Shown one piece after another: positions 2,111 through 22,300 of a stretch of 64,000 nucleotides of DNA. Position 1 is the stretch's first letter. Each line of letters starts with the position of its first letter. The stretch covers positions 11,732 to 75,731 of the forward strand of contig DASXUE010000049.1 in NCBI GenBank assembly GCA_036505055.1, written 5' to 3'. Source of the stretch: Gemmatimonadales bacterium. Lineage in GTDB: Bacteria; Gemmatimonadota; Gemmatimonadetes; Gemmatimonadales; GWC2-71-9. Under the pieces are notes generated by a model, which saw only the letters and a program-made list of their open reading frames with translations, had not been told where the DNA came from and ran no database searches. The position numbers and the translations under genes were made by a program.

Positions 2111-2853
2111 GTTTCGCGGATCATTTTTCTGGTGTTTCCGCCGCGTATGCCGCGTTCCGGCCGCGTTACCCCGATGCCCTGTTCGATCTGCTCGCCGGCG
2201 TGGCCCCGGGCCGTGATGCGGCCTGGGACTGCGCCACCGGCTCGGGGCAAGCGGCGTTGGGGTTGGCCCGGCACTTTGCCCGGGTGATCGCGACGGACGC
2301 GAGCGACGCCCAGATCGCCCACGCGACCCCGCACCCCCGGGTGACCTACCGGGTGGCCCCCGCCGAGCAGAGCGGGCTGGACGACGAGTCCGTCGACCTC
2401 GTCACGGCGGCGCAGGCCGTCCATTGGTTCGACCGGCCGCGCTTCTGGGCCGAGGCGCGCCGCGTGCTGCGCCCCCGGGGCGGGGTGATCGCCGTGTGGA
2501 CGTACTGGTCGTTTTCCATCGCCCCGGAACTCGACGCCGTCGTGCGGCGGTTTTACAAGGACACCGTCGGGTCGTTCTGGCCTCCCGAGCGGAAGCTCAC
2601 GGAGGACCGCTACCGGACGCTCGACTTTCCATTCGCTGAGTTCACCGTGCCAGGCTTCATGATCGAGCAGCAGATGACGCTGGACGACGTGGCAGGATAC
2701 ATTCGGACCTGGTCGGCCACGCGGGCGTACGTCGAGCATGAGGGCCGCGATCCGGTGGACGACCTCGTTGCCGAGCTGCGGCCGGTGTGGGGTGACCCCA
2801 CCGTGGCGCGGCTCGCCCGCTGGCCGCTCGCGGTGCGTGCCGGGAGGACATGA
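2107..2853 (+). CDS. Class I SAM-dependent methyltransferase
   Basis: GTG at 2107 overlaps the upstream stop (GTGA). SAM motif I is WDCATGSGQAA and post-I is VIATDAS. Only the C-terminal 248 aa of the 1186..2853 track ORF look protein-like. Confidence 0.8.
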   Translation: MSFADHFSGVSAAYAAFRPRYPDALFDLLAGVAPGRDAAWDCATGSGQAALGLARHFARVIATDASDAQIAHATPHPRVTYRVAPAEQSGLDDESVDLVTAAQAVHWFDRPRFWAEARRVLRPRGGVIAVWTYWSFSIAPELDAVVRRFYKDTVGSFWPPERKLTEDRYRTLDFPFAEFTVPGFMIEQQMTLDDVAGYIRTWSATRAYVEHEGRDPVDDLVAELRPVWGDPTVARLARWPLAVRAGRT

Positions 2854-3338
2854 TGAGAGACTGGATCCAGACAGTGATGACTCGCGAACTAAAGGCGTTG
2901 CGCCGCGAGGTCGAGTCGTACCCCAGCGATGCCGAGCTGTGGGAAAGCGCCCCGGGCATCACGAACCCCGGCGGCAACCTGGTGCTGCACCTCGCGGGTA
3001 ACATCCAGTACTTCCTCGGCGCCGTGCTCGGCGGCACCGGGTACACGCGCTACCGCGACGCCGAGTTCGACAGCCGCGATGTCCCCCGCGCGGACCTGCT
3101 GCGGGAGATCGACGGGGCGCTCGCCGCCGTCGAAACGGGCCTCGCCCGCGTCAACGACGCCGACCTGAAGAAGCCCTTCCCCGAGGCGGTTGGCGGCGTC
3201 ACGCCCACGACCGGCGCGTTCCTCGCGCACCTCGCCGTGCACCTCGGCTATCACCTCGGCCAGGTGGACTACCACCGCCGCATCATCACCGGCGAGGGAA
3301 AGACGGTGGGCGCGTTGCCCGTCGGGGAGCTGCGGTGA
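2850..3338 (+). CDS. DinB-superfamily protein
   Basis: ATGA overlap with the upstream gene. His-containing DinB helices are present (NLVLHLAGN, HLAVHLGYHLGQVDYH). Confidence 0.7.
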   Translation: MMRDWIQTVMTRELKALRREVESYPSDAELWESAPGITNPGGNLVLHLAGNIQYFLGAVLGGTGYTRYRDAEFDSRDVPRADLLREIDGALAAVETGLARVNDADLKKPFPEAVGGVTPTTGAFLAHLAVHLGYHLGQVDYHRRIITGEGKTVGALPVGELR

Positions 3339-3859
3339 TGAACATCGGGCGTCCCCAAGCGGACGAAGTCCCCGCCCATCTCGTGGGCTACGTCGGCAAC
3401 ATCCCCGAGAGCGATCCCGTGACGGTGCTCGCCACCCAGATCGATGTCACGGCCGAGCTGCTGCGCGGGCTGTCAGAGACCGACGCCCTGAAGCGGTACG
3501 CCCCGGGGAAGTGGAGCATCAAGGAAGTCGTGGGGCATATGGCGGATACGGAGCGGATCATGGCGTACCGTGCCCTGCGGATCGCGCGCGGCGATCAAAC
3601 GCCGCTCCCCGGATTCGACGAGAACGCGTACGTTCCGCCCGCCAAGTTCGACGCCCATCCCCTCGCCGAATTGATCTCTGATCTGCGGGTCACCCGGGGC
3701 GCTACCCTGGCGCTGTTCCGCAGCTTCGACGCCGACGCCTGGACGCGTCGCGGCACGGCCAGCGGCAAGGCCGTCAGCGTACGCGCGCTCGGCTACGTGA
3801 TCCCGGGGCACGAGCGCCATCACGTGGAGATCCTGAAGACGCGGTACGGCCTTCAGTAG
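3335..3859 (+). CDS. DinB-family (DinB_2-like) metal-dependent protein
   Basis: Start overlaps the upstream stop. Motifs WSIKEVVGHMADTERIMAYRAL and GHERHHVEILKTRY are present. Confidence 0.75.
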   Translation: MMNIGRPQADEVPAHLVGYVGNIPESDPVTVLATQIDVTAELLRGLSETDALKRYAPGKWSIKEVVGHMADTERIMAYRALRIARGDQTPLPGFDENAYVPPAKFDAHPLAELISDLRVTRGATLALFRSFDADAWTRRGTASGKAVSVRALGYVIPGHERHHVEILKTRYGLQ

Positions 3860-3895
3860 GGTATATTCCCCGGACCACGGGGAGGGACTTCGCAT

Positions 3896-4489
3896 ATGCG
3901 ATCGTTGTATTTCGCCGCCGGGCTCGCCGCCACCGTCGTTGCAACGGCAGCCGCCCAGCAACCGGCTACTCCACCTGCGCCCGCCGGCCCGCCGCCTCTC
4001 GAAGTCGGCACGGTCGCGCCGGACTTCACCCTCCCGGGCGCGACGCGATTCGGCGCGCTGCGCGCACCCATCCGGCTGAGCGACTTCAAGGGGAAGACGG
4101 TGGTACTCGCCTTCTTCTTCAAGGCGCGAACGCGTGGCTGAACGATCCAAATGAACGCGTACCGTGATCAGTACGCGCAGCTGTTCAAGGATGGCCGCAA
4201 CGTGGTGTTGATTGGCATCAGCGCCGACGCCGACACCGCGCAGGCCTCGTGGGCGCGGGACTCCGAATTCCCGTTCCTGTTCGCGAGTGATTCAGGGTCC
4301 GTCGTCGGCAAGATGTACGGCGCCTTCAGCGTCCGCGGAAACCTCGACAACCGCAATCTGTTTGTGGTGGGACCCGACGGGAAAATCGCGTACCGCGCAA
4401 CCCCGTTCCGGGAGATCGATCCGACCGCCTACACGGAGTTGGGGGCGGCGATCGCGAAACTGGTTCCTGCAGACTCGACGGTGAAGTGA
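3896..4489 (+). CDS. Secreted AhpC/TSA (Bcp-type) peroxiredoxin with in-frame UGA at the peroxidatic-Cys position. It is a candidate selenoprotein, or alternatively a TGC->TGA pseudogene.
   Basis: Track ORFs 3896..4141 and 4151..4489 are in the same frame and separated only by TGA (4139-4141) plus 3 sense codons. The joined sequence VVLAFFFKARTRG[TGA]TIQMNAYRD lines up with E. coli Bcp [23 protein letters not shown]. A signal peptide is present (MRSLYFAAGLAATVVATAAAQQ). There is no SD before the 4151 ATG. A hairpin lies 15 nt downstream of the TGA. Confidence 0.6.
4145..4192 (+). promoter_or_regulatory. Candidate bacterial SECIS-like stem-loop
   Basis: Perfect 7-bp stem CGCGUAC (4156-4162) / GUACGCG (4171-4177) with 8-nt loop CGUGAUCA, which contains GU. 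A possible lower stem is UGAA (4152-4155)/UUCA (4184-4187) plus AUCC (4145-4148)/GGAU (4189-4192). The structure starts 4-15 nt after the UGA. Confidence 0.45.
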
Positions 4490-4494
4490 GAGAA

Positions 4495-4583
4495 GGACGG
4501 TCTAAGACGGCCTAAGACGGTCCAGGGCGGTCAAGGACGATCGTTGACCGTCTTGGACCGTCCTGGACCGCCTTGGACCGCCC
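4495..4583. terminator. Long imperfect palindrome built from ~10-nt tandem units; likely a bidirectional terminator between convergent genes
   Basis: Left arm is GACGGTCTAA GACGGCCTAA GACGGTCCAG GGCGGTCAAG. Centre is GACGATCG. Right arm is TTGACCGTC TTGGACCGTC CTGGACCGCC TTGGACCGCC. About 31 of 39 arm positions are complementary. The right arm also encodes the last ~17 aa of the minus-strand TlpA-like gene. Confidence 0.5.
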
Positions 4584-5064
4584 TCGCAAGAGCCGCTTCG
4601 ATATCCTGGTCCGCCCCGACACCCGTATAGACCACCTTTCCTCGGGCGTCGAGCACCGCCACATCCGATGTCGTGGGCGCCTGGAAGGCGCGGGTGGCGC
4701 TGCCGTTCGCGTCCCACAGGAAGGTGAACGGCATCGGATGCCGCGCGAGGTGCCGGCGCACGGTGTTGGGGCTCTGATTCACGGCGACGGCGACGACGAG
4801 GAATTCCGCGCGGTCCCCGTACTTCTTCCGCGCCGCCTCCATCCGCGGCAGCAGCTCGGCGCAGATGGGGCACCACGTCGCCCAGAACTCAACGATCACC
4901 GGCTTCTTCCCCACCCAGCGCGCCAGCTCGACTGCGTTGCCGTCGAGGTCCTGGACCGTGACCGCGGGTGGCGTCTGGCCGACGGGAATGCCGACGACGT
5001 CGTCCTGCGCGGCGGCGAGGCTCGGCACGAGGAGTGCAACGAGGAGCGCCAGCCGCCTCACCAT
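4531..5064 (-). CDS. TlpA-like periplasmic thiol:disulfide oxidoreductase (thioredoxin fold)
   Basis: The internal ATG at 5064 gives signal peptide MVRRLALLVALLVPSLAAAQ. CxxC motif is WATWCPIC. The start overlaps the ccdA stop (ATGGTGA). The upstream 108 aa of the track ORF are Arg/Gly-rich and overlap ccdA. Confidence 0.85.
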   Translation of the reverse strand: MVRRLALLVALLVPSLAAAQDDVVGIPVGQTPPAVTVQDLDGNAVELARWVGKKPVIVEFWATWCPICAELLPRMEAARKKYGDRAEFLVVAVAVNQSPNTVRRHLARHPMPFTFLWDANGSATRAFQAPTTSDVAVLDARGKVVYTGVGADQDIEAALARAVQGGPGRSKTVNDRP

Positions 5065-5777
5065 ACCTGCCCCGCTTTGATGAAGTAGTATTGAGCCATC
5101 AGCAGTAGAACCACGCCCGCCGTCCTTTTGATCCATACCATCCAGGCGCCCGCACGCGGCAGCGCCGTCAGCGTTCCGGAGAACAGCCCGACCACGACCA
5201 GCAACGCGGTCATACCGAGCGAAAATGCGAACAGATAGACGAATCCGAGCACGGCGCTTTGGGTGCTCGCCACCCACGTCAGCACGGCGGCGAACGCCGG
5301 CGCGCCGCAGGGAGCCGCGACGATGCCCGAGGTCGCGCCGAGCAGAAAGACGGCTGGATAGGATCCCCCGCCCAGTCCCCCCGCCCACGCGGCGAGCCGG
5401 GCGGGCACGCGGATCGGGATCACATCGAGCATCGCGAGGGCGAACACGAGGAGCAGGTTACCGATCGCGAGGCGCGCCCACGGACTCGAGCCGATGGTGC
5501 CGAACAGCGAGCCCGTGAGCCCGGCGACGAGGCCCAGTATCGCGTAGAACAGCGCGAGGCCGGTCGCGTAGGTGAGTGTGAGCCCGACGGTGCGGCGCCG
5601 CGAGCGCCCGTCGGCGTCCACGCCGGCCAGCGCGCCCGCCGTGATGGGAATCATCGGATAGATGCAGGGGTTCAGGCTCGTCACGAGCCCGGCCGCGAAC
5701 AAGAGCGGCACCGCCACGAGGGGGCGGTGCTGCAGGGCATCGGAGATGCCGGAGAGGACGACGGCCAACGTGGCCAC
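5058..5777 (-). CDS. ccdA: CcdA/DsbD-family transmembrane thiol-disulfide electron transporter
   Basis: Polytopic membrane protein with the conserved LNPC and PCG motifs (SLNPCIYPMIP, AAPCGAPAF). GTG start. Confidence 0.85.
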   Translation of the reverse strand: MATLAVVLSGISDALQHRPLVAVPLLFAAGLVTSLNPCIYPMIPITAGALAGVDADGRSRRRTVGLTLTYATGLALFYAILGLVAGLTGSLFGTIGSSPWARLAIGNLLLVFALAMLDVIPIRVPARLAAWAGGLGGGSYPAVFLLGATSGIVAAPCGAPAFAAVLTWVASTQSAVLGFVYLFAFSLGMTALLVVVGLFSGTLTALPRAGAWMVWIKRTAGVVLLLMAQYYFIKAGQVW

Positions 5778-5804
5778 GGACGGGATAATAACGAATTATC
5801 TTTC

Positions 5805-5865
5805 CCGCAGGCGATGGAGTTCGCCTTCAACCGCCCATCCCAAGGGCTGATGACTCCTACCCGCA
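5805..5865 (+). promoter_or_regulatory. Fluoride riboswitch (crcB RNA motif)
   Basis: GGCGAUGGAGUUCGCC-UUC-AACCGCCC-AUCCCAA-GGGCUGAUGACUCCUAC closely matches the crcB motif (compare T. petrophila GGCGAUGAGGCCCGCCCAAACUGCCCUGAAAAGGGCUGAUGGCCUCUAC). It lies directly upstream of crcB, and an AT-rich putative promoter lies just 5' of it. Confidence 0.9.
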
Positions 5866-5889
5866 CCGACCGACGGGAGGAGTTTCTTC

Positions 5890-6246
5890 TTGAGAATCCT
5901 GTACATCGCACTCGCCGGCGTCGCCGGAACGCTCGCCCGCTATGGACTCGACGGCTGGGTCCAGGGGCGCGGCGGCACGCTCACGGTGAATCTGACCGGC
6001 TCCCTGGCCCTCGGTTTCATCATTCGCTACGCCACAGGCTCGATCGTCGTCTCGCCCGACGTGCGCGCCGCTCTCACGATAGGCTTCTGCGGCGCCTACA
6101 CGACGATGAGCACGTTCAGCTACGAAACCATGGCGCTGCTCTGGGATGGCGAGTATTGGCGGGCGGGACTCTACATGGGGGTCACCATTGCCGGATGCCT
6201 GATGGCGGTCGCGTTGGGAGCGGCGCTGGCCAACAAACTACTGTGA
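5890..6246 (+). CDS. crcB: Fluoride ion channel CrcB/FluC
   Basis: TTG start 9 nt after GGGAGG. Four TM helices. Signature GFCGAYTTMSTFSYE. Confidence 0.9.
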   Translation: MRILYIALAGVAGTLARYGLDGWVQGRGGTLTVNLTGSLALGFIIRYATGSIVVSPDVRAALTIGFCGAYTTMSTFSYETMALLWDGEYWRAGLYMGVTIAGCLMAVALGAALANKLL

Positions 6247-6253
6247 GCGACAT

Positions 6254-6592
6254 ATGACCGAACGATTTCGCGGTGAGCGCACGCTGATGCGCGTTTTCAT
6301 CGGCGAGAGCGACAAGTACGAAGGCAAGCCGCTGTATGAGGCCTTGCTGGAACGGTTCCGCAAGAGGGGCCTCGCCGGCGCCACCGTGCTGCGCGGCATC
6401 GCGGGGTTCGGCGCGAGCAGCAAGGTGCACACCGACAAGGTGCTACGCTTGTCACTCGACTTGCCGCTGATCATCGAGGTCGTCGAAGCCGAGGAGACGA
6501 TTCAGCAAGTTCTCCCCGATCTCGATGAGATGATCGGGGGTGGACTGATCACACTGGAGCGGGCGAATGTGATCCTGTATCGGCCCGCCTAA
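6254..6592 (+). CDS. DUF190 (PII-like) protein, commonly co-transcribed with crcB
   Basis: Sequence LMRVFIGESDKYEGKPLYEALLERFRKRGLAGATVLRGIAGFG... matches the DUF190 pattern. It lies 7 nt after crcB. Confidence 0.8.
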   Translation: MTERFRGERTLMRVFIGESDKYEGKPLYEALLERFRKRGLAGATVLRGIAGFGASSKVHTDKVLRLSLDLPLIIEVVEAEETIQQVLPDLDEMIGGGLITLERANVILYRPA

Positions 6593-13313: not shown

Positions 13314-16300
13314 CTACGGCGTGAAGTACTTCAACACCGTCAGCGCAGAGGCGTGCGGCACGTAGACCTTGCCCGTCTCCGGGTTGACGGTCGCACTCTG
13401 GGGGAAGTCGCTGAACGCGCCGACGATCACCGTCCGATAGGCGTTCGATGCCCCATCGATCTCGTGGACGATGTTGTTGCTCGCGTTCGCGACATACACC
13501 TTGTTCCGCTTCTCGTTGACGCTCATGCCCTGAGCCGAATTCGCGCCGATGAACACGTTCGTGAACACCGTATCCACGCCCGGCGTCGCATCGATCACCT
13601 TGACCTCACCACCGCTGCCCACGTACACGAGATTTGTCTGCGTGTTCACAGCGACGCCGCTCAGCGCAAACCCCACGTCGCCGAACGCGGCCTTGATCGT
13701 GAGGCCCGCGACATCGACGAACGCTAGAGTATCGGTCCGCAGCACGACGAAGGCGCGCTCCGTGAGCGGATTGAACGCCACCGCGCCCGGGGCCGATGCG
13801 CCACCACCGCTGAAGCGCACCGTATCGGTCTGCATGAGCGTGTTCGTCGCGCCGTCGATCGTCGAGAGGAACGGCAGGTCGCCCTCGGCCACGCGCAGCA
13901 GCGAGCCGACGTAGACGCGATTCCGCACGGTATCCACCGCAATCCCGCCGGTGTTCAGGCCGACCGAAATCGTCTGGACGATGCCGATCGGATCTCGCGT
14001 GCCGTCGAGCACCGTGACGGATCCGGCGGCGCTGTTGGACACGTAGATCATGCCGGTGACCGGGTTGACCGCCACGCTCGCCGGCGAAGAGCCGACGTCG
14101 ATGGTCTGGATCAGTTTGTCCGTGTCGCCGTCGAAGACCGACAGGTTATTGCTCGAGGTGTTGACGACGTACACGCGATTCCGCACGGGGTCGAGGGCCG
14201 AGCCCTGGGGGAACGCGCCGAGACCCGTCTCGTTCACGATGATCGGATTGTAGATGACGCCCGCGCCGAGTATAGTGTCGCCCTGCGCAGTCAGCGTGTA
14301 TGCCGTGATGACCGCCGCATCCCGCGGGTAGCTCGGATACGTGCTGTCGAGCCGGACCCGAATCGAGCTCGCGCTCGGATAATCGATGATCGTCAGGTAC
14401 TGACCGGCGGGCGCATCCTGACGCCAGCCGACGGCGCCGGGCATCGGCGTGCCGCCCTGATCGGTCGCGGACGCGGTGAACGTCACCGTGTCGCCGAGCC
14501 CCGCGCTCACGGTGTCCGGCGTGACGGCGATATTGGCGATCACCTGGTTCACCGTGATGGCCAGGGTGCCGCGGTCCGGCACCAACGGGGACCCGGACGT
14601 CTGCTGCGTCACGAGCGACGCCGTGCCGTTCGCATGCGCGGTCACCTCGACAAACTCACCCATCATGCCGCTTTGCGCATCGATGGTGACCGTTGTGTCC
14701 CCCGCCACCTCATTCGTCCAGTTGAAGTGATAGACGTCATTCGGGGGCAGGGGGCTCCCCGCAGAGTCGACGAGCTGCGCCTGGAACGTGCGCCGGCACA
14801 GGATGTTGTACGGCCCGACCGAGGGACAGAGCGAGCCGTACAGCGCGGTGTCCTGGGTAATGCGCACCCCCACCGGTGCGACGTTCATGTTGATCACGAT
14901 CGAGTCGACGAACGTGCCGCCCTCATACTCGGCCCGAATTTGCATGGTCGCGGGCAATGCGGCCGTCACCGTGAAGAACACCGAGTCGGCCTTCACGGAG
15001 TCGATGCTGCCGTAGAAGGGCGAGAACCAGCCCACGTTGTGGCACACGCCGCTGTTCGGCACGTCGGTGAAGCAGAAATCGGGGAAGCCGCTCGGGTGCG
15101 TCACGTTGCCGAGCGTATCACGCGCGTGCGTCACGAGCACACCGCGGCGCCCGCTGGACGTGAACGTGACCGAGTTGCTGTCCGCCGCCACCTGGCCCTG
15201 CGTTAGCGTATCCCCGAGTGGCCCTTCGAAGACGAGCTGGAAGTCGACCGCGCTCGTCGGGTCCGGTTGCAGGAACGCCGCCCACGTGACAGGCGAGCCG
15301 ATCAGGCCCGGCACCGTCGCCTGCACGAATTGCAGATTCGCCGCCGTTGACGTGAGCCACACGCCCCCAGCGCGTCCGCCGATGTCGCTGGGCACGCCGG
15401 GATCCTGGAACGCCCCGCTCGACACACCCCACTGGATCGTCGTCCCGGCCACGCCGCGTCCCTCGGCATCCAGCACGCGGACGCGAATCGAGTCGGGATC
15501 GCCCACGATGGCGTTGATCGCCGCCGTCAGGGCGGTGTCGGTCGCCGGCGTGAGCTGTGCCGCCGGGCCCACCGAGAAGTGCGGACCCGCGATCACATCG
15601 AAGCGGACCGGGCTGGCATCGAGCGCGGCACGGCCCAGGGAATCGTTGCCTTCAAACCCGGCGTACAGCGCCGCGGCGTCACCCCACCAGTTGCCGGTCG
15701 CGTCGAGCGAGTCGGACCCTCCGGTCGCGGTCTGGATGATCTGGCCGTTGTAGTGGTACAGGTCCGAGCCGTGAATCATGAGCGACAGCGGCGACGGGCT
15801 CCGGATCATCGGTGACAGCGCGTTCTGGTAGAACTGGCTGTTCTGGACCGTCAACGGGCTTCCCACCACCGAATCCACATCCAACGCCACGAGCGGCGAC
15901 GCCCGCACGGTGACGGCATCCAGGATCAAGCCGCTCGCCGACACGTTCGAGTACCGGATGGCGGCGAACAGAATCGGCAGGCAGTCGCCGCCGCAGGGGA
16001 TGGCCGATCCCGCCCGCTCGACGATGAGGTGCGAGACCCCGCCGGCCCCTGAGAGATTCGCGAACTCGAGGCCGCCCCAGAACAACCCGGTTGGCCCGGT
16101 GAACACAATGGGCGACCCGCTGGTCCCAACGGCATTCAGCGCCGAGGGGACGTCGCCGCCGATCTTGAGCCGTACGTTGAAGTCGAAGGTCACCGTGTCA
16201 CCGGGCAGCACGGACAGCACCGCGCCCGAGTCCACGGTGACGTTCTGCGTCACGCGCCACCGCGAGCCGAGCTGCGGCAGGGTATCGGAGACGGCGAGCG

Positions 16301-19300
16301 TCCCGCCGTGCAGCAGGAGCGTGTCCTTGTTGTTCCCCGTCAGGCTGTTCGTCAACAACCCGGGCAGCACGTCGGCCGGGATGTCGAGCGCGTACAGGTT
16401 CCCCGTGAGCGTGTTGCCGCTGATCTGGTCGGCCGGGTTGAAGCGGCGCACGCGTGCCACCAGGCCGACGCCGGCCGACTGGCGAATGAGGTTGTCCCGC
16501 ACCTGGAAGCCGAGCGGAGGCCCGCGCTTCACGACGATGCCGTGGAAGGCGCTCGAATCGCTCACGACCGAGTCGATCGCGAACGGCGCGGAGCCGATCG
16601 GCGCGTCGACCCACAGGTTCGCGTTCAGCGGCTCGAAGAACCCGATGACGATGACTTCCCGCCCCCCGCCGAACGAGGCCTGGTAGCCGCCGTGTACCAG
16701 CCGCAGGTGTCGCACGACGGGCGTGCCGCTCTGCGCGCCGAGGTAGAGGCCGCCCCAGCCGGGCCGACCCAGCCGGTTCCGCAGCACCACCGGGCTGGCG
16801 GCGGTGCCGAGCGATACGAGGTTCGCGCTCACGCCGCTCGAGTTCCCGGCCGAGTCCGCGAAGTCGCCGAGGCTCATGGAGGCGGCCGTATCGAAGGCCA
16901 TGACGACGCCGCTATCGAGCGTGAGGTTCACGCCCGTCGGTGACCAGACGTTCAGGTTCCCCGTGAAGAGGTACGGCGCGGCTTGGCGGAAGATCGTGAA
17001 GTTCGGCACGCCGAATCCCACGGTGCCCGAATCGACGACGATCGTGTCACCGAAGCCGCCCGCGCCGAATCCATTGCCCGCGATGGAGTCCTGGAGCCCG
17101 AATCCAGAGAGCTGACTGCCGAAGATGTGGACCCCGGCGACCGCGTTCCCGACGAAGCGGTTCCCCGTGGCGCCGACCAGATTCACGAAGCCGTTGCCGA
17201 TGAACAGGCCTTCCTGTCCGGAGCCGCGGATCGTCGTCGAGTCGAGGCGCAGGACGGGCGCGCCGGTCACGTACTCGGCGTGGATCCCCGAACCCGTGAC
17301 CGAGTCGATCTGGCTGCGGTGCATGTGCAGGCTGCCGGCGAAGTGATGCACGCCGGCGTGCACGCACTGCCGAATGTGCACGCTGTCGAGATCGACCCCC
17401 CCCGCCGGATCGACGAGCAGGATGCATGCTTCGTTGAACGGATTCGCGCGCGCGCCACCCGCGTACTCGATGTCGACGTTGCGCCAGATCTGCGGGCCGA
17501 TCGCCTTCTGCACTTCGAGCCCCTGCCAGAAGCCGGGGCCCGGAGTGGGGCTGTTCGCGGTGAGGTGAATGCTTCCCGGCGTGCCCAGCATCACGAGATC
17601 GCCGGCTTGGCCGAGCGTCGAGTCGCCCACCTGAAGGCCGGCGGCGGAGTCGAACTTGACCGTGGCGCCATCCGCGATCGTCAGGGTCGCCCCATTGAGG
17701 ATCCGGACGTAGGACGAGACGACGTGCGTCCCGGCGGCCGACCACGTTTCGTCGGCGGTGATGTCCGCGGCGTGGACCAAGAGGGGCGCAACCACGACGA
17801 GCTGCAGGCCGTTGGCCGTGACGACGGTGTCGAGCGCCAGCCCGCCGCCGACGAGCGGCAGGTTGAGAGCACCGAAGCCGCCGCTCCGCGACGCGAACGT
17901 CATCACTGTGAACGTGTCGCCCAGGGCCGGCGTGAAGCCGTTGATCAGCGAGACCTGCAGGGCTCCGCCCAGCGCGGCGCTGCCGCTGACGGCCAGCCGG
18001 TCGTACTGCGCACCCGGAGTCGTGCCGCCCAGCTCGATGTGGAGCGACTCGGTCGGGGACGCCGGATAGTTCCCGGTGATGCTCAGGATGCCGGGCCCGC
18101 CCAGGCCCGGACGCACGCTGCCGAAGTTGCTGAAGGCGACGGCATTGACGTTGAAGATGCCCAGGCCTTCGATCGTGCCGGTCGTGTCGTTCGCGAAGCT
18201 CGAACTGCCACCCGCGACGGTGAGGGTGCCGCTCGCCAGCGTGAGCGTGCCCGCGTTGCGGTGCGACGCCGACGTCTTGCTGAGCGTCAGGGCCTGTGCC
18301 GGCGCGACGGCCACGACCAGCGCGCCCCCCGCCTGGTTGTCGATCATCGCGTCGAGCTGTCGGCCGCCCGCGAAGCCCGTGTCGGCGAGGATCGTGGCAC
18401 CCGCCGCGTTCACCAAGACGCCCGTGGTGACGTCGAGGCCGGCGCCGTAGGCGGCGGTCGTGTCGGTCAGCACGATCGTACCGTTGTTCGTGAAGCCCGA
18501 GGCGGCGGTGAGGCGCGAGAAGCCCGTGATGCCGTTGCCGCGGACCCGAATGAGCGACGCCGGGAGCGTGGTGAACGATCCGCCCACGGCCGACGACCCT
18601 TCGACGAACAGGCTGCCGCCGTTCGTGAACGGCGCGTTGATCGTGGACGCCCGCATGAGGAGCGAGCTGCCGGTGTCGTTCGTCACGGCGCCCGGCCCGT
18701 TCACGGTCGCGTTGATCAGCGTCAGGCCGAGGGTGTCGTTCGTGAAGCTCGGCGTGAACGTGGCCACCACGCTGCTCTGCAGCGCCAGGTTGCCGCGCCC
18801 ACCGATCGTGCCGCTCGCGTAGTTGAACGTGCCGCCGCTCAACGCCAGCGTCTGGCCGGCGGCGATTGAGATCGTGCCCGTGGTGCTGAACGCGCCACCC
18901 GCCTGCGACAGCGTGAACCCGCCGCCCGACAGCGTCAGCGTGCCGGTGTGCACGAGGCTCGACACGCCCGACTGGTTGATGTTGAGCGCGCCGCTCGCCA
19001 CGACGATCGTCCCGGTGTTCGAGTCGGCGGCGGCGGCGTGCGCCACGGTCAGCGACTGTCCCGGAGCCACGTCGACCGTGATGGTGCCGCGGTTGTAGAA
19101 CTGCGCGTTGAGCTGGCGCGGCCCCGCGGCACCCTGCGACGCGTCGATCCCGGCACCCACGGCGTTGATGAGGACGCCGCTCGTCACGTCGAGCCCCGCG
19201 CCGTAGGCGGCGGTCGAGTCGGTCAGCTGGATCTGGCCGTTGTTCGTGAATCCGTTCGCGACGGTCAGCCGCGAGAGGCCGGTCGTGCCGTTCCCCTGAA

Positions 19301-22300
19301 TCCGGATCGACGACGTGGTGGCCGTCGTGAAGCTGCCGCCCAGCGCGCTGTTCCCATCCACCTGGAGGGTGCCGTTGTTCACGAACGGCGCGTTGATCGT
19401 GCTCGCGCGCATCGCCAGCGTGTGCCCGACGAGGTTCGTGATCGTCCCGGGGCCGTTGACGGTCGCATTGACGAGCACGAGCGAGGTCACGCTGTCCGCG
19501 AACGACGGGGTGAAGTTCGCCGTTACGCCGCCGATCAGGGCGAGCGCCCCGGCGCCACCGATCGTCGCCCCGGCGTTGTAGTTGAATGTCCCGCTCGACA
19601 CCTTGAACGTGTCCGCCGCGCCGACGGTGACGCCGCCGGTGAGCGTGAACGTGCCGGTGCCGCCCTGATTCAGCGTGAAATTCCCGCCCGAGAAGTCGAG
19701 GGTGCCGCTCGACACGAGGCTCGGGTTGACCCCCGACTGGGTGATCGTGAGGTCGCCACTCGCGACGGTGATCGTACCGGTATTCGAGTCCACCGCGCTC
19801 GCGTGGGCCATCGTGAGGCCCTGGTTCGCCGCGGTGGCGACCGTTAGCGACCCCTGGTTCGAGAACTGGGCGTTGAGCTGCCGGGGACCGGCCGAGCCGG
19901 TCGGGGCGATGATGCTGGCGCCTGCCGCGTTGACGAGCGTTCCGGTCGTGACGTCGAGCCCGGCGCCGTAGGCCGCCGTCGAGTCCGTCAGCACGATTTG
20001 GCCGTTGTTCGTGAACCCGGAGGCCACCGTGAGCTGGGAGAAGCCGGTGGTACCATTCCCCTGGATCCGGATCGACGAGGTACCGCCCGTCGTCACGGCG
20101 CCGCCCAGGACGCTGCTCCCATCGACGAACAGCGAACCGTTGTTGACGAACGGCGCGTTGATCGTGCTCGCGCGCATCGACAATGACCGGCCGGCAGCGT
20201 TCGTGATTGTGCCGGGCCCGTTGAGCGTCGCGCTCTGCAGCACCAGACCCATCGAGTCGGTGGCGAAGCTCGGCGTGAAGTTCGCGGTCACGCCGCCCTT
20301 CAAGTGGATCGTTCCCAGGCCGCCGATCTGCGCGCCGGAGTTGTAATTGAACGTGCCGGCGTTGACCGCGAACGAGTCGGTCGCGCCGACAGTGAGCGAT
20401 CCGGTGAGTGTCACGGTGCCAGCGGCGGGCTGGCTGATGGACATCTTCCCGCCGCTCGCGCTGATCGATCCGCTGCTCGTGAAGACGAAGCTCGGCCCCG
20501 CCTGCGTGATGTTGAGCGCACCGCTCGAGATGACGATCGCGCCGGTGTTCGCGTGCCCCGCATCGCCGACCGGCGCCGCCAACGTGACCGCCTGTCCCGC
20601 CGCCGGCGCGACCGTGAACGTCCCCTGGTTGTCCAGCGAGGCGTTGATCTGCCGCGGTCCACCGGAGCCCTGGTTCGCGACGAGCAGCGCGCCCGCCGCG
20701 TTCACCAACGGGCCGCCCGCGACGTTGAGCCCCGCTCCATAGGCAGAGGTCGAGTCGGTCAGCGTGATCGTGCCGTTGTTCGTGAAGCCCGATCCGACGC
20801 TGAGCTGCGAGAAGCCCGTTGTGCCGTTGCCCTGCACCCGAATGAGCGAGGTGGCGGTCGTCGTGAGCCCGCTGCTCAGCGTGGTGCCGCCTTCGACGTA
20901 GAGCGTGCCGGCGTTCGCAAACGGCTTGGCGACGATGGTGCCGCGCAACTTGACAGTCCCAGCGTTCGTCAGCGTCCCGAGGCCGCTCAGCTGGCCCGGA
21001 TTGCGGACATCGAGCACGCCTCCGGCATTCACGTCTAGCGCACCACCGACGCCGAGTGCCTGGCTGCCGACGAGCAGCGTCTGCGTTCCGGAGGCACCAC
21101 CGATCTTCAGGCCGCCGATCGTATCGGCCACGTCGAAGGTGACGGTGTACGTCCCGGAGAGGTTGATGACCGCCGTGTCGCCCAGCGCGGGCACCGCACC
21201 GCCACTCCAGTTGGCCGGATTGCTCCAGTTACCGCCCGAGGCGTTGGCCCAGAACACGACGCTGGCCGGCGGGGCGACGTCGAACGCGGCACTCGTGTCC
21301 GGCGCGAGCCCGGTCCCCGTCGCCATCAGCGTGTAACCGGTCCCTGGCTGGTCGATGCGCAGGTCCGCGAACGAGGCGACGCCCGCGCTCGCTCCAACCG
21401 TGAGCGTGCCCGACAGCACGCCGCTCGACGGGTTGGTGCCGAGCGCCACGGTGATGCTGTCGCTGGCTGCGGACACGATGTTGCCGGCCGCGTCCGTGAC
21501 CGCGACCTGCACCGCCGGCGCGATCGCCGTCCCCGCGGCGGCTGCGCTCGGCTGCACCGTGAACGCGAGCGCGACCGGCGCACCCGGCGTGATCGCGAAA
21601 GCGACGCTGGTGTCGGGCACGAGGCCCGCCGACGTCGCGATCAGCCGGTAGCCGCTCGCCGCCTTGCCGAGCGAGAGCCCCGAGAAGGTGGCGACGCCGT
21701 TCACGGCGCTGACCGTCTTCGTGCCGGACAGCGTATCGCCGCCCGGATTCACGCCGAGGCTCAGCGTGATGCTGTTCGTCGCCGTCGGGAGCGGGTTGCC
21801 GCTTCCGTCGAGAACGGTGACCTGGATCGCCGGCGTGATCGCGCTGCCGGACGTGGCGCTCGAGGGCTCGACGGTGAACGCGATCCGCGCGGGCGCCGGT
21901 GCGATCGCCGTCGCCACGAACGTCGCGGTCGCGGTCGTGCCCACCAGCGTGGCGCGCACGGTATCGATCCCGGGCACCGCGCCGAGCTGGTAGGTGACCG
22001 ACGTCTGGCCGTTGGCGAGCGTCGTGGTCGTGTCGGCGCTGGGCGTGCCGTTGCCGAGGACGACGCTCCAGGCGACGCGCGCTCCGCTTACGACGTTGTT
22101 GAACGTGTCGCGCACCACGACGACGAAGGGCGCCGCCAGCACCTTGCCGATCGTGTCGGTCTGGCCGCTGCCCGACACGAGGGCGATGGTCTTGGCCGTC
22201 GCCGCCGTCGCGGTCGCGCCGAAGGTGACGGCGGGAATGGCGGGGAACGCCGGCACCGTCACCTGGAAGCTCTGGGCGCCGATCGCCGATCCCAGCGTGC

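What the first reader, a model, noticed from the sequence alone, without database searches (positions are those of the whole stretch)
3896..4489. Peroxiredoxin interrupted by an in-frame TGA exactly at the catalytic Cys codon: candidate selenocysteine peroxiredoxin
The two track ORFs (3896..4141 and 4151..4489) share one reading frame. They are separated only by TGA (4139-4141) plus the codons ACG ATC CAA. Joined, they give a complete secreted Bcp-type peroxiredoxin. The TGA falls on the peroxidatic cysteine: FFFKARTRG-TGA-TIQMNAYRD here versus [19 protein letters not shown] in E. coli Bcp. The conserved Thr at -3 and the downstream Arg (DNRNLFVV) are retained. The second ORF has no Shine-Dalgarno sequence. 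A perfect 7-bp hairpin, CGCGUAC-CGUGAUCA-GUACGCG (4156-4177), has GU in its loop and starts 15 nt after the UGA. It can be extended by a lower stem to 4145-4192. This is the geometry expected of a bacterial SECIS element. Sec-containing peroxiredoxins are known (PrxU of Eubacterium acidaminophilum), but automated annotation would split or drop this gene.
Basis: partly seen in the sequence, partly recalled or inferred. Interest (0 to 1): 0.85.

Follow-up and report, generated by a model that had tools for sequence, protein, structure and literature searches.

The report
Secreted selenocysteine peroxiredoxin of Gemmatimonadales
A gene that databases split in two is almost certainly one exported peroxide-detoxifying enzyme whose catalytic residue is selenocysteine, read from a conserved UGA "stop" with the help of a conserved RNA hairpin; this kind of enzyme is known, but this lineage is new and unrecognised in a common soil bacterial order.

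Summary
Positions 3896-4489 (+) are one reading frame with a single in-frame TGA (4139-4141) at the peroxidatic-Cys column of an AhpC/TSA peroxiredoxin. The window alone is weak evidence, because the hairpin partly follows from palindromic coding of A-Y-R-D-Q-Y-A. Comparative data decide the question. All 80 species-level Gemmatimonadales relatives also carry TGA there, while the gene's real stop varies (TAA 33, TAG 27, TGA 21). The 7-bp hairpin 4156-4177 pairs in 81/81 sequences. Its closing pair covaries through all four Watson-Crick types at two synonymous sites. Synonymous sites inside the element are frozen in TGA forms but free in TGC/TGT forms. A second, more distant TGA clade carries the same hairpin, with further compensatory changes. 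The hairpin meets all four published bacterial SECIS criteria. The protein has a signal peptide, no other cysteine, and Phe/Tyr in place of the canonical active-site Pro. In 55/67 species it sits next to a TlpA-like thioredoxin and CcdA, which suggests a periplasmic reduction relay. Sec machinery could not be checked. GenBank splits the gene into two ORFs. Verdict: a new member of a known kind (Sec-peroxiredoxins).

The parts
3896..4489 (+). Complete recoded gene: precursor of a 197-residue 1-Sec peroxiredoxin (AhpC/TSA fold). Residue 82 is encoded by UGA. The gene's own terminator is TGA at 4487-4489.
   Evidence: Single frame. Pfam AhpC-TSA spans the stop. 81/81 orthologues have the same architecture. 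Amino-acid conservation with free synonymous change on both sides of the TGA. AF2 model of a 78%-identical proxy has pLDDT 88.8 and a Prx fold.
3881..3885 (+). Shine-Dalgarno GGAGG, 10 nt upstream of ATG 3896
   Evidence: Read from the sequence. No comparable motif lies upstream of ATG 4151.
3896..3955 (+). Predicted Sec-type signal peptide (MRSLYFAAGLAATVVATAAA|QQ). It has a single Arg, so it is not Tat-type.
   Evidence: Heuristic only (K/R near the N-terminus plus a hydrophobic run of 9 or more residues). A hydrophobic run of that length precedes the mature domain in 75 of 79 UA, 36 of 37 UP and 26 of 27 Cys sequences that have a start codon 60-110 codons upstream. The cleavage site is inferred by eye; no SignalP was run.
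4118..4120 (+). Phe codon at the position of the canonical active-site Pro of the Prx motif PxxxTxxC
   Evidence: Of the 81 sequences of this TGA clade (the window plus 80 species relatives), 80 have F or Y here and one has S. All Cys forms and the second TGA clade have P.
4130..4132 (+). Conserved active-site Thr (-3 from Sec)
   Evidence: 81/81. Thr or Ser in the Cys forms.
4139..4141 (+). In-frame UGA at the peroxidatic-Cys column; proposed Sec82 codon
   Evidence: TGA in 81/81 and in 37 further distinct metagenome sequences. Aligned homologues have TGC (34) or TGT (2). The terminal stop of the same gene varies: TAA 33, TAG 27, TGA 21.
4148..4150 (+). CAA (Gln) codon, a synonymous choice tied to the TGA forms; probably part of the recoding signal (spacer)
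   Evidence: CAA in 116/118 TGA forms against 1/28 Cys forms, which use CAG.
4156..4177 (+). bSECIS-like apical hairpin: 7-bp stem 4156-4162/4171-4177 and 8-nt loop 4163-4170 (CGUGAUCA), with G at loop position 2 followed by U. There are 21 nt between UGA and the loop.
   Evidence: RNAalifold predicts exactly this stem. It is 100% paired in 81 sequences. The closing pair is CG 42, UA 37, AU 1, GC 1, with none broken. The second clade has G:C, plus one inner C:G>A:U double change. Energy is -10.5 kcal/mol. Normalised synonymous entropy is 0.23 inside against 0.51 outside (P 0.0015), 0.06 against 0.64 in the second clade, and 0.61 against 0.56 in Cys forms. All four bSECIS criteria of PMC13188914 are met.
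4352..4354 (+). Conserved active-site Arg (R153, in LDNRNLF)
   Evidence: 81/81. Invariant in alignments A2 and A4.
4531..5064 (-). TlpA/ResA-like exported thioredoxin-fold protein (177 aa, signal peptide, WCPIC motif), convergent with the Prx gene; proposed direct reductant
   Evidence: Pfam Redoxin 1.2e-22 and Thioredoxin 1.6e-9. NCBIfam ResA/TlpA are the best hits but below cutoff. Present on the minus strand just downstream in 55/67 species with enough DNA.
5058..5777 (-). CcdA/DsbD-type membrane electron transporter (two conserved Cys, DsbD_TM), upstream of and overlapping the tlpA-like gene
   Evidence: Pfam DsbD_TM 7.3e-44. Co-located in 55/67 species. The same pair lies near a Cys-form gene in L083.

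Best explanation
Positions 3896-4489 encode one exported peroxiredoxin in which the peroxidatic residue is selenocysteine. During translation the UGA at 4139-4141 is not read as stop. The hairpin 4156-4177, with its apical loop 21 nt downstream, acts as a bacterial SECIS. It recruits SelB-GTP-Sec-tRNA(Sec) to the ribosome, and Sec is inserted as residue 82.

The precursor is exported by the Sec translocon. Inferred mechanism: the mature enzyme has no cysteine at all, so the selenolate attacks the peroxide to give a selenenic acid. An external thiol protein must then reduce it through a selenenyl-sulfide intermediate.

The conserved neighbours suggest the route: cytoplasmic thioredoxin, then CcdA (5058-5777) across the membrane, then the TlpA-like periplasmic thioredoxin (4531-5064), then the Sec-Prx.

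Shown here: conserved UGA, conserved and covarying hairpin, the Sec/Cys homologue pair, purifying selection on both halves, Prx fold and active-site Thr/Arg, and synteny. Inferred: SelB dependence, actual selenium incorporation, export, and the identity of the reductant.
For: (1) TGA at the catalytic column in 81/81 Gemmatimonadales species and in 37 further distinct sequences of a second clade. Homologues carry TGC/TGT.
(2) The gene's true terminator varies among TAA, TAG and TGA, while the internal codon never does.
(3) Both halves keep amino-acid conservation with free synonymous change.
(4) The hairpin pairs in 81/81. The closing pair shows CG, UA, AU and GC with none broken, at two third-codon positions. 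The second clade adds G:C and a C:G>A:U double change made through two amino-acid replacements.
(5) Synonymous entropy collapses inside codons +1 to +12 only in TGA forms. Atypical codons are fixed in a 69% GC genome: CGT 81/81, GAT 78/81, CAA 79/81.
(6) Association: 7/7 stem in 117/118 TGA forms against 3/28 Cys forms; loop CGUGAUCA in 115/118 against 1/28.
(7) All four bSECIS model criteria are met.
(8) TGA is also an ordinary stop in this genome (33 of 89 GC3-selected ORFs in the window, some of which are antisense shadows; the gene's own terminator; 21/81 orthologue terminators), so the code is not reassigned.
(9) The Prx fold is confident and the recoded residue lies in the first turn of helix 76-87.
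(10) Sec-Prx with a T/SxxU site is an established family that has arisen repeatedly from Cys forms (PMC1794560, PMC5029168, PMC13188914).
(11) Synteny with tlpA-like plus ccdA in 55/67 species. This is analogous to the Caulobacter ScsB-TlpA-PprX pathway (PMC3322552).
Against: No selA, selB, selD or tRNA-Sec was found in the window, in about 6 kb beyond its right edge, or in 1.47 Mb of related loci. That is uninformative rather than negative, but the key requirement remains untested. I found no literature documenting Sec use in Gemmatimonadota.

No Rfam family matches the hairpin. Six of the seven stem pairs never vary, so covariation rests mainly on one pair in the first clade, plus the changes seen in the second clade. 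Part of the hairpin follows from the peptide sequence, since 3/28 Cys forms have it.

The canonical active-site Pro is missing in this clade. Published opinion holds that aerobes rarely keep selenoproteins (PMC13188914). The relay is inferred from gene order only, and the second TGA clade lacks those neighbours (0/14).
Confidence: 0.88

Rival explanations
1. UGA is recoded, but not to selenocysteine by the canonical pathway. For example, hairpin-stimulated read-through by a near-cognate tRNA (Trp or Cys), or Cys insertion by a tRNA(Sec)-like tRNA delivered by a SelB-like factor.
For: The Sec machinery was not found or testable. No literature on Sec use in this phylum. Everything shown about the conserved UGA and hairpin is equally compatible with any hairpin-dependent recoding.
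Against: The UGA sits exactly on the redox-active Cys column of homologues, the signature of Sec/Cys pairs. The hairpin fits the SelB-type bSECIS geometry, including the loop G-U. Trp or Gly at the peroxidatic position would be inactive, yet the whole protein is under purifying selection. If Cys were the product, a TGC codon would do the job without any RNA element.
Confidence: 0.06
2. Genuine stop: two separate products. An 81-aa secreted N-terminal fragment and a 112-aa C-terminal fragment started at ATG 4151 would assemble as a split peroxiredoxin-like protein or act independently, as current annotation implies.
For: Gene callers and GenBank annotate two ORFs. An ATG lies 9 nt after the stop.
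Against: There is no SD before ATG 4151. That Met is the conserved Met of T[IV]QM in the uninterrupted Cys forms, not a start. The internal stop is always TGA while true terminators vary. The C-terminal half would lack a signal peptide and the catalytic residue. A frozen hairpin with covariation is unexplained by simple termination and reinitiation.
Confidence: 0.03
3. Nonsense pseudogene: a TGC>TGA mutation killed a Cys-peroxiredoxin, and the hairpin is a by-product of the peptide sequence.
For: On the single window sequence the hairpin is not statistically unusual. Some Cys forms form the same hairpin. TGC>TGA is one step.
Against: The same TGA occurs in 118 distinct sequences from at least 80 species at 69-90% aa identity, with no other disruption and clear purifying selection on both sides. 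Synonymous sites are frozen only in TGA forms.
Confidence: 0.01
4. Sequencing or assembly artefact at the TGA.
For: Rare variant calls do exist at this codon: TTA on a 1.6x-coverage contig (L085), and a 'W' produced by a code-4 gene call (P0003).
Against: Independent assemblies from many studies and platforms all give TGA. An independently assembled JGI contig of the same organism (L081) encodes the identical 112-aa C-terminal product and is likewise called as an 81-aa plus a 112-aa ORF.
Confidence: 0

Closest known systems
Sec-containing peroxiredoxins (selenoprotein family 'Prx', PF00578, T/SxxU active site; prototype PrxU of Eubacterium acidaminophilum, Sohling et al. 2001, as cited in PMC13188914)
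   Same: AhpC/TSA fold. UGA at the peroxidatic-Cys column with Thr at -3. A coding-region hairpin immediately downstream that fits the bSECIS model. Cys-containing homologues exist. The family is known to have arisen several times by Cys>Sec conversion (PMC1794560).
   Different: Not an orthologue of PrxU (NF040737 scores 59 bits against a cutoff of 270). Carries a signal peptide. Has no other Cys. The motif is [F/Y]xxxTxxU rather than the 'highly conserved PxxxTxxU' (PMC13188914). Found in Gemmatimonadales, which I believe to be largely aerobic soil bacteria (from general knowledge, not tested here), whereas known Sec-Prx are mostly from anaerobic Deltaproteobacteria and Clostridia (PMC1794560).
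Caulobacter crescentus ScsB - TlpA - PprX periplasmic peroxide-reduction pathway (PMC3322552)
   Same: An exported peroxiredoxin genetically associated with a TlpA-like periplasmic thioredoxin and a DsbD-family membrane electron transporter. The proposed electron flow is cytoplasm > membrane transporter > TlpA > Prx.
   Different: There the Prx uses Cys and the transporter is ScsB (with an extra N-terminal domain). Here the catalytic residue is Sec and the transporter is the minimal CcdA type. The link here is gene order only (55/67 species) and has not been tested biochemically.
1-Cys peroxiredoxin AhpE (M. tuberculosis, PDB 1xxu/1xvw) and archaeal Bcp/PrxQ (PDB 3hjp, 2ywn, 2cx3)
   Same: Closest solved relatives by sequence (E 4e-14 to 2e-10) and by structure (TM 0.87 and 0.83). 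Like AhpE, this family has a single redox residue and needs an external resolving thiol.
   Different: Only 27-29% identity. Those proteins are cytoplasmic, Cys-based and keep the active-site Pro. E. coli-type Bcp has a resolving Cys at +5, which is Asn here.
E. coli fdhF/fdnG SECIS and the bSECISearch consensus model
   Same: A stem-loop inside the coding region just 3' of UGA, with a small apical loop, G followed by U near its 5' side, and spacing within 16-37 nt.
   Different: No sequence similarity and no bulged U. The lower stem is not conserved. SelB binding is untested.

Membership tests
Peroxiredoxin superfamily (Pfam AhpC-TSA PF00578) | Profile match above the gathering threshold | tested here: met
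   E 5.6e-26, 91.4 bits against a cutoff of 26; the match spans residues 37-166 across the TGA.
Peroxiredoxin superfamily (Pfam AhpC-TSA PF00578) | Thioredoxin-type Prx fold, with the peroxidatic residue in the first turn of helix alpha2 | tested here: met
   AF2 model of the 78%-identical proxy P0001 has pLDDT 88.8, and residue 78 lies at the start of helix 76-87. All top Foldseek PDB hits are peroxiredoxins, with TM up to 0.87.
Peroxiredoxin superfamily (Pfam AhpC-TSA PF00578) | Universal active-site residues Pro, Thr, Cys(P) of PxxxTxxC, plus the distal Arg | tested here: not met
   Thr and Arg are invariant. Cys(P) is replaced by UGA. Pro is replaced by Phe here, and by Phe, Tyr or Ser across the 81 sequences of this clade. 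The second TGA clade and all Cys forms keep Pro. The motif is therefore only partly met.
Sec-containing Prx selenoprotein family (T/SxxU) | In-frame UGA aligned with the catalytic Cys of Cys-containing homologues (Sec/Cys pair) | tested here: met
   TGA in 118 distinct sequences; TGC/TGT in 28 distinct homologues at the same column.
Sec-containing Prx selenoprotein family (T/SxxU) | UGA conserved in orthologues, with coding conservation on both sides | tested here: met
   81/81 species. Per-codon profile. The terminal stop varies, the internal one does not.
Sec-containing Prx selenoprotein family (T/SxxU) | Sec-decoding machinery (selA, selB, selC, selD) in the same genome | not testable with these tools
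   Absent from the window and from 1.47 Mb of flanks.
Sec-containing Prx selenoprotein family (T/SxxU) | Selenium actually incorporated (75Se labelling or MS) | not testable with these tools
   Needs an experiment.
Bacterial SECIS (bSECISearch consensus, as given in PMC13188914 Fig. 2 legend) | Apical loop of 3-9 nt and upper stem of 4-16 bp | tested here: met
   8-nt loop and 7-bp stem.
Bacterial SECIS (bSECISearch consensus, as given in PMC13188914 Fig. 2 legend) | G in one of the first two loop positions, usually followed by G or U | tested here: met
   The loop is C-G-U-G-A-U-C-A. The G-U is invariant in all 118 TGA forms. Most Cys forms have CGC or CGG, so the U is missing.
Bacterial SECIS (bSECISearch consensus, as given in PMC13188914 Fig. 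2 legend) | 16-37 nt between the UGA and the apical loop | tested here: met
   4142-4162 is 21 nt.
Bacterial SECIS (bSECISearch consensus, as given in PMC13188914 Fig. 2 legend) | MFE of -7.5 kcal/mol or lower | tested here: met
   -10.5 kcal/mol.
Bacterial SECIS (bSECISearch consensus, as given in PMC13188914 Fig. 2 legend) | Binding by SelB; function in UGA recoding | not testable with these tools
   Needs an experiment. Evolutionary support comes only from covariation and frozen synonymous sites.
PrxU equivalog (NCBIfam NF040737) | Score at or above the curated cutoff | tested here: not met
   59.1 bits against 270.
Bcp / PrxQ (NCBIfam NF006960; E. coli-type atypical 2-Cys) | Score at or above the curated cutoff; resolving Cys five residues after Cys(P) | tested here: not met
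   55.9 bits against 140. Position +5 is Asn, and there is no other Cys in the mature domain in 146/146 sequences.
DsbD-family > TlpA > periplasmic Prx relay (ScsB-TlpA-PprX type, PMC3322552) | Exported Prx, with a TlpA-like exported thioredoxin and a DsbD-family transporter genetically associated | tested here: met
   Signal-peptide heuristic. Pfam Redoxin/Thioredoxin and DsbD_TM. Adjacent in 55/67 species. The transporter is CcdA-type, not ScsB.
DsbD-family > TlpA > periplasmic Prx relay (ScsB-TlpA-PprX type, PMC3322552) | Demonstrated electron transfer and peroxidase activity | not testable with these tools
   Needs biochemistry.

The most novel reading that the evidence does not exclude
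The conserved UGA plus hairpin is decoded without the canonical SelA/SelB/SelD pathway. One possibility is a tRNA(Sec)-like tRNA that delivers Cys or another residue. Another is a lineage-specific recoding factor that recognises the invariant CGUGAUCA loop. This would be in a phylum for which no Sec machinery has been documented. The evidence here shows hairpin-dependent recoding of UGA, but it cannot show which residue is inserted or by what factor.
Probability: 0.05. Interest if true: 0.8.

Novelty: new member of a known kind. Interest (0 to 1): 0.45.

Why it matters
**Annotation.** In this GenBank record the gene is annotated as two fragments (a hypothetical protein and a redoxin-domain protein). 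Many relatives in public collections are likewise called only as 112-113-aa C-terminal fragments. No NCBIfam model captures the family. A family-specific model with the Sec position flagged would fix many records.

**Biology.**
- It would document Sec decoding in Gemmatimonadota. This is a widespread soil phylum that the Sec-trait surveys and reviews I could search do not mention.
- The selenoenzyme would work in the oxidising cell envelope, against the common view that aerobes rarely retain selenoproteins (PMC13188914).
- It offers a natural experiment in Prx chemistry. There is one redox residue only (Sec) and no resolving Cys. In one clade the 'universal' active-site Pro is swapped for Phe/Tyr exactly where Cys became Sec, while a sister TGA clade keeps Pro.
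- It shows how a SECIS can arise. The peptide A-Y-R-D-Q-Y-A already encodes most of the hairpin in Cys forms, so only a few synonymous changes (CGC>CGU, CAG>CAA) plus TGC>TGA are needed.

Tried and rejected
- Rfam at gathering threshold and at E up to 10 on 3800-4600: no SECIS or other RNA family at the hairpin. The only low-score hits are miRNA models on the unrelated downstream palindrome.
- ARAGORN on the window and on all loci: no tRNA-Sec.
- tblastn with E. coli SelA/SelB/SelD written from memory against 1.47 Mb. The only hit was a GTPase in L011, which turned out to be a 726-aa EF-G-like protein.
- Scan for other TGA-interrupted coding regions in the window and loci: only adjacent same-frame genes, no second selenoprotein candidate.
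- Look-ups beyond the window edges: about 6 kb gained on the right, nothing relevant; the left query was not on record.
- Literature and supplementary-table searches for Gemmatimonadota Sec use: nothing found.
- Lower-stem extensions of the hairpin: rejected as conserved features.
- NJ tree of Sec and Cys forms: the forms are interleaved, but rooting and support are poor, so I draw no conclusion on the number of Cys/Sec switches.
I used the closest full-length database call, P0001, instead.
- The 'L' and 'W' residues at the Sec column in the top database hits are not natural Cys-less variants of interest. P0003's W is a code-4 gene call whose C-terminus also reads through its stop. P0002's L is TTA on a 1.6x-coverage contig with the hairpin intact. 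Such errors float to the top of the hit list because only they give full-length ORFs.
Full report
**1. Observation**

Window 3896-4489 (+) translates as one frame of 197 codons with a single internal stop, TGA at 4139-4141, followed by ACG ATC CAA ATG. With Cys put in for the stop, Pfam AhpC-TSA matches residues 37-166 across the stop (E 5.6e-26, 91 bits against a gathering score of 26). A GGAGG lies 10 nt before ATG 3896, and nothing comparable precedes ATG 4151. The 7-bp hairpin 4156-4162/4171-4177 with loop CGUGAUCA is exact (-10.5 kcal/mol, z -2.58). So the description is accurate.

On this sequence alone, however, the RNA evidence is weak. The 65-nt region folds no better than shuffles (z -1.06), and no Rfam family matches.

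**2. The TGA is conserved, not a lesion**

A protein search returned many 112-113-aa 'C-terminal half' gene calls at 88-96% identity, which shows that the split recurs.

A scan of one genome per GTDB species found 248 relatives. The best 80, all Gemmatimonadales or Gemmatimonadota MAGs at 69-90% identity, were fetched. Every one has TGA at the catalytic column in an otherwise open frame, with the motif AFF[F/Y][K/R]ART[R/S/K]G-TGA-T[I/V]QMNAYRD (81/81 including the window).

The same gene's real terminator varies freely (TAA 33, TAG 27, TGA 21), so an ordinary stop at the internal site would be expected to vary too. Both halves show strong amino-acid conservation with abundant synonymous change. 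TGA also serves as an ordinary stop in this genome (33 of 89 GC3-selected ORFs in the window, some of them antisense shadows, and this gene's own terminator), so the genetic code is not reassigned. Pseudogene and artefact explanations are therefore excluded.

**3. The hairpin is a selected RNA element**

- **Frozen codons.** Across the 81 genes, four-fold sites typically carry 1-1.7 bits of codon entropy. Codons 4157-4174 (A-Y-R-D-Q-Y) carry 0-0.23 bits. They use codons that are atypical for a 69% GC genome: CGT 81/81, GAT 78/81, and CAA 79/81 at 4148.
- **Predicted structure.** RNAalifold predicts exactly the 7-bp stem. It is paired in 81/81 sequences. Its closing pair 4156:4177, two third-codon positions, occurs as C:G 42, U:A 37, A:U 1 and G:C 1, with none broken.
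- **Lower stems.** The middle 4 bp pair in 97% of cells but never covary, and the outer 4 bp pair in only 67%.

**4. Control with Cys forms, and a second Sec clade**

Homologues at 72% identity or less carry Cys in the canonical FFP[R/K]xR[T/S]xGCT motif. I fetched their DNA.

Among 65 distinct metagenome and contig sequences, 28 have TGC or TGT. The other 37 form a second TGA clade (FFPKARTKG-TGA-T[I/V]QMEAYRDQYAT) that keeps the Pro and has the same hairpin and loop. In that clade the closing pair is G:C (36/37). One sequence (L132) has converted an inner pair from C:G to A:U through two amino-acid replacements, Ala>Glu and Ala>Ser.

| Feature | TGA forms (118) | Cys forms (28) |
|---|---|---|
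| 7/7 stem | 117 | 3 |
| Loop CGUGAUCA | 115 | 1 |
| CAA at +3 | 116 | 1 |

Normalised synonymous entropy in codons +1 to +12 against the rest of the gene:

| Group | Inside +1..+12 | Rest of gene | P |
|---|---|---|---|
| TGA clade A | 0.23 | 0.51 | 0.0015 |
| TGA clade P | 0.06 | 0.64 | <1e-4 |
| Cys forms | 0.61 | 0.56 | 0.75 |

Caveat: these sequences are related, so the counts are not independent events.

A few Cys forms (L083, L099, L127) already form the hairpin, because A-Y...Q-Y-A written as GCG TAC ... CAG TAC GCN is palindromic. This both weakens single-sequence inference and suggests how the SECIS arose.

**5. Fit to the known SECIS model**

The published bacterial model is quoted in PMC13188914. 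It requires a 3-9 nt apical loop, a 4-16 bp upper stem, a G in the first two loop positions (usually followed by G or U), 16-37 nt between UGA and the loop, and an MFE of -7.5 kcal/mol or lower. Here the values are 8 nt, 7 bp, C-G-U..., 21 nt and -10.5 kcal/mol. All criteria are met. The loop U (CGU) is the feature that most clearly separates TGA forms from Cys forms.

**6. The protein**

- **Family.** It reaches no curated NCBIfam equivalog. PrxU scores 59 against a cutoff of 270, and Bcp scores 56 against 140. The closest solved sequences are archaeal Bcp/PrxQ and M. tuberculosis AhpE.
- **Structure.** An AF2 model of the closest full-length database call (P0001, 78% identical, same motif) is confident (pLDDT 88.8). 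It places the recoded residue in the first turn of helix 76-87. Foldseek finds only peroxiredoxins; the best superpositions are AhpE (TM 0.87, rmsd 2.4 Å) and Bcp4 (TM 0.83).
- **Active site and export.** Thr(-3) and the distal Arg are invariant. No other Cys exists in the mature domain of any of 146 sequences. Nearly all of them have an N-terminal signal-peptide-like segment.
- **Pro replacement.** In the Gemmatimonadales clade the canonical Pro of PxxxTxxC is Phe or Tyr (Ser once). The second TGA clade and all Cys forms keep Pro.

**7. Context and proposed mechanism**

Convergent with the Prx gene lie a TlpA/ResA-like exported thioredoxin (4531-5064, WCPIC) and a CcdA/DsbD_TM transporter (5058-5777). 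This pair follows the Prx gene in 55 of 67 species with enough downstream DNA. It also lies near one Cys-form gene (L083), but not in the second TGA clade (0/14).

The arrangement parallels the experimentally defined ScsB>TlpA>PprX periplasmic peroxide pathway of Caulobacter (PMC3322552).

I therefore propose the following. SelB-dependent Sec insertion at UGA82 is followed by Sec-translocon export. The selenolate reduces the peroxide and becomes a selenenic acid. Recycling then goes through a selenenyl-sulfide with the TlpA-like protein, which is kept reduced by CcdA. The recoding is strongly supported by comparative evidence. Export, the reductant and the chemistry are inferred.

**8. What could not be tested**

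No selA, selB, selD or tRNA-Sec lies in the window, in about 6 kb beyond its right edge, or in 1.47 Mb of related loci. These genes need not be linked to selenoprotein genes, so this result is uninformative. I could not search whole assemblies. I found no paper or supplementary table that documents Sec use in Gemmatimonadota. This leaves a small probability for non-canonical recoding of the UGA.

**9. Comparison with what is known, and novelty**

Sec-containing peroxiredoxins with a T/SxxU site are an established bacterial selenoprotein family. They were found in 78 organisms in PMC5029168. PMC1794560 inferred five independent Cys>Sec conversions. [quoted passage not shown] By that operational definition this gene is a member, so the kind is known.

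What is new:
- the lineage (at least 80 Gemmatimonadales species plus a second clade);
- the probable periplasmic location and the conserved TlpA/CcdA partnership;
- the 1-Sec design with no Cys;
- the Pro>Phe/Tyr change;
- the fact that no curated model or annotation recognises it.

GenBank records this very gene as HEY3280270.1 'hypothetical protein VGJ83_07135' plus HEY3280271.1 'redoxin domain-containing protein'.

**10. Verdict**

Interest is moderate at 0.45. A specialist would not be surprised that another Sec-Prx exists. They would still find several things useful: the phylum, the envelope location in a mostly aerobic soil group, the altered active-site motif, and the clear view of how the SECIS originated.

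Noticed in passing
window 4494-4584: Inverted repeat with 44-nt arms built from 10-nt tandem units (GACGGYCYWR). As RNA it folds at -70.6 kcal/mol (z -7.7). It lies between the convergent Prx and tlpA-like genes and overlaps the last ~18 codons of the called tlpA-like ORF. It is the source of the spurious low-score miRNA hits in Rfam. It occurs only in this organism (the window and its JGI contig L081) and in none of 164 other loci. It may be a bidirectional terminator or a strain-specific inserted palindromic element.
   Followed up: partly
L102, L107-L109, L111, L113, L115, L117, L119-L120, L122, L126, L130-L133 and others (metagenome contigs): A second TGA-containing peroxiredoxin clade (FFPKARTKG-TGA-T[I/V]QMEAYRDQYAT). 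It keeps the active-site Pro, has the identical CGUGAUCA hairpin, and lacks the tlpA/ccdA neighbours (0/14). Its taxon was not determined; its sequence resembles Gemmatimonadaceae Cys forms.
   Followed up: partly
L099 (Cys codon at 4001+), L127, L083:6001-6606: Cys-type (TGC) relatives that nevertheless carry a full 7/7 SECIS-like hairpin; L099 even has the identical loop. These are either pre-adapted ancestors of the Sec forms or recent Sec>Cys revertants.
   Followed up: partly
L085:101-664 (P0002), and P0001: Leu at the Sec column. In L085 it is TTA, one G>T step from TGA, on a 1.6x-coverage contig with the hairpin intact. It is probably a sequencing error or a rare null allele. P0003's 'W' is a code-4 gene call. 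Such calls head the homologue list only because they yield full-length ORFs.
   Followed up: yes
window 4127-4129: The Arg codon four positions before the UGA is CGA in 70/81 sequences of the Gemmatimonadales clade, a rare codon in a high-GC genome. This does not hold in the second TGA clade or in the Cys forms. Unexplained; possibly a context effect on Sec insertion.
   Followed up: partly
window 5801-5866, 5890-6246, 6254-6592: A fluoride riboswitch (Rfam RF01734, 63 bits against a gathering score of 34), followed by crcB (Pfam CRCB 6.9e-26) and a DUF190 gene. This is an ordinary fluoride-resistance unit just beyond ccdA.
   Followed up: yes
window 2850-3338 and 3335-3859: Two tandem DinB_2-superfamily genes; the second also matches mycothiol-S-transferase/MDMPI_N. 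They lie immediately upstream of the Prx gene, with a 4-nt overlap between them. They are co-located with the Prx in about half of the species (33-34 of 66). This may be a thiol-dependent detoxification neighbourhood.
   Followed up: partly
window 13314-23201 (-): A single ORF of 3295 aa with a coding-like GC3 signature (0.91). Not examined.
   Followed up: no
window 5058-5064: The tlpA-like start overlaps the ccdA stop by 7 nt, which suggests translational coupling of the two proposed relay components.
   Followed up: no
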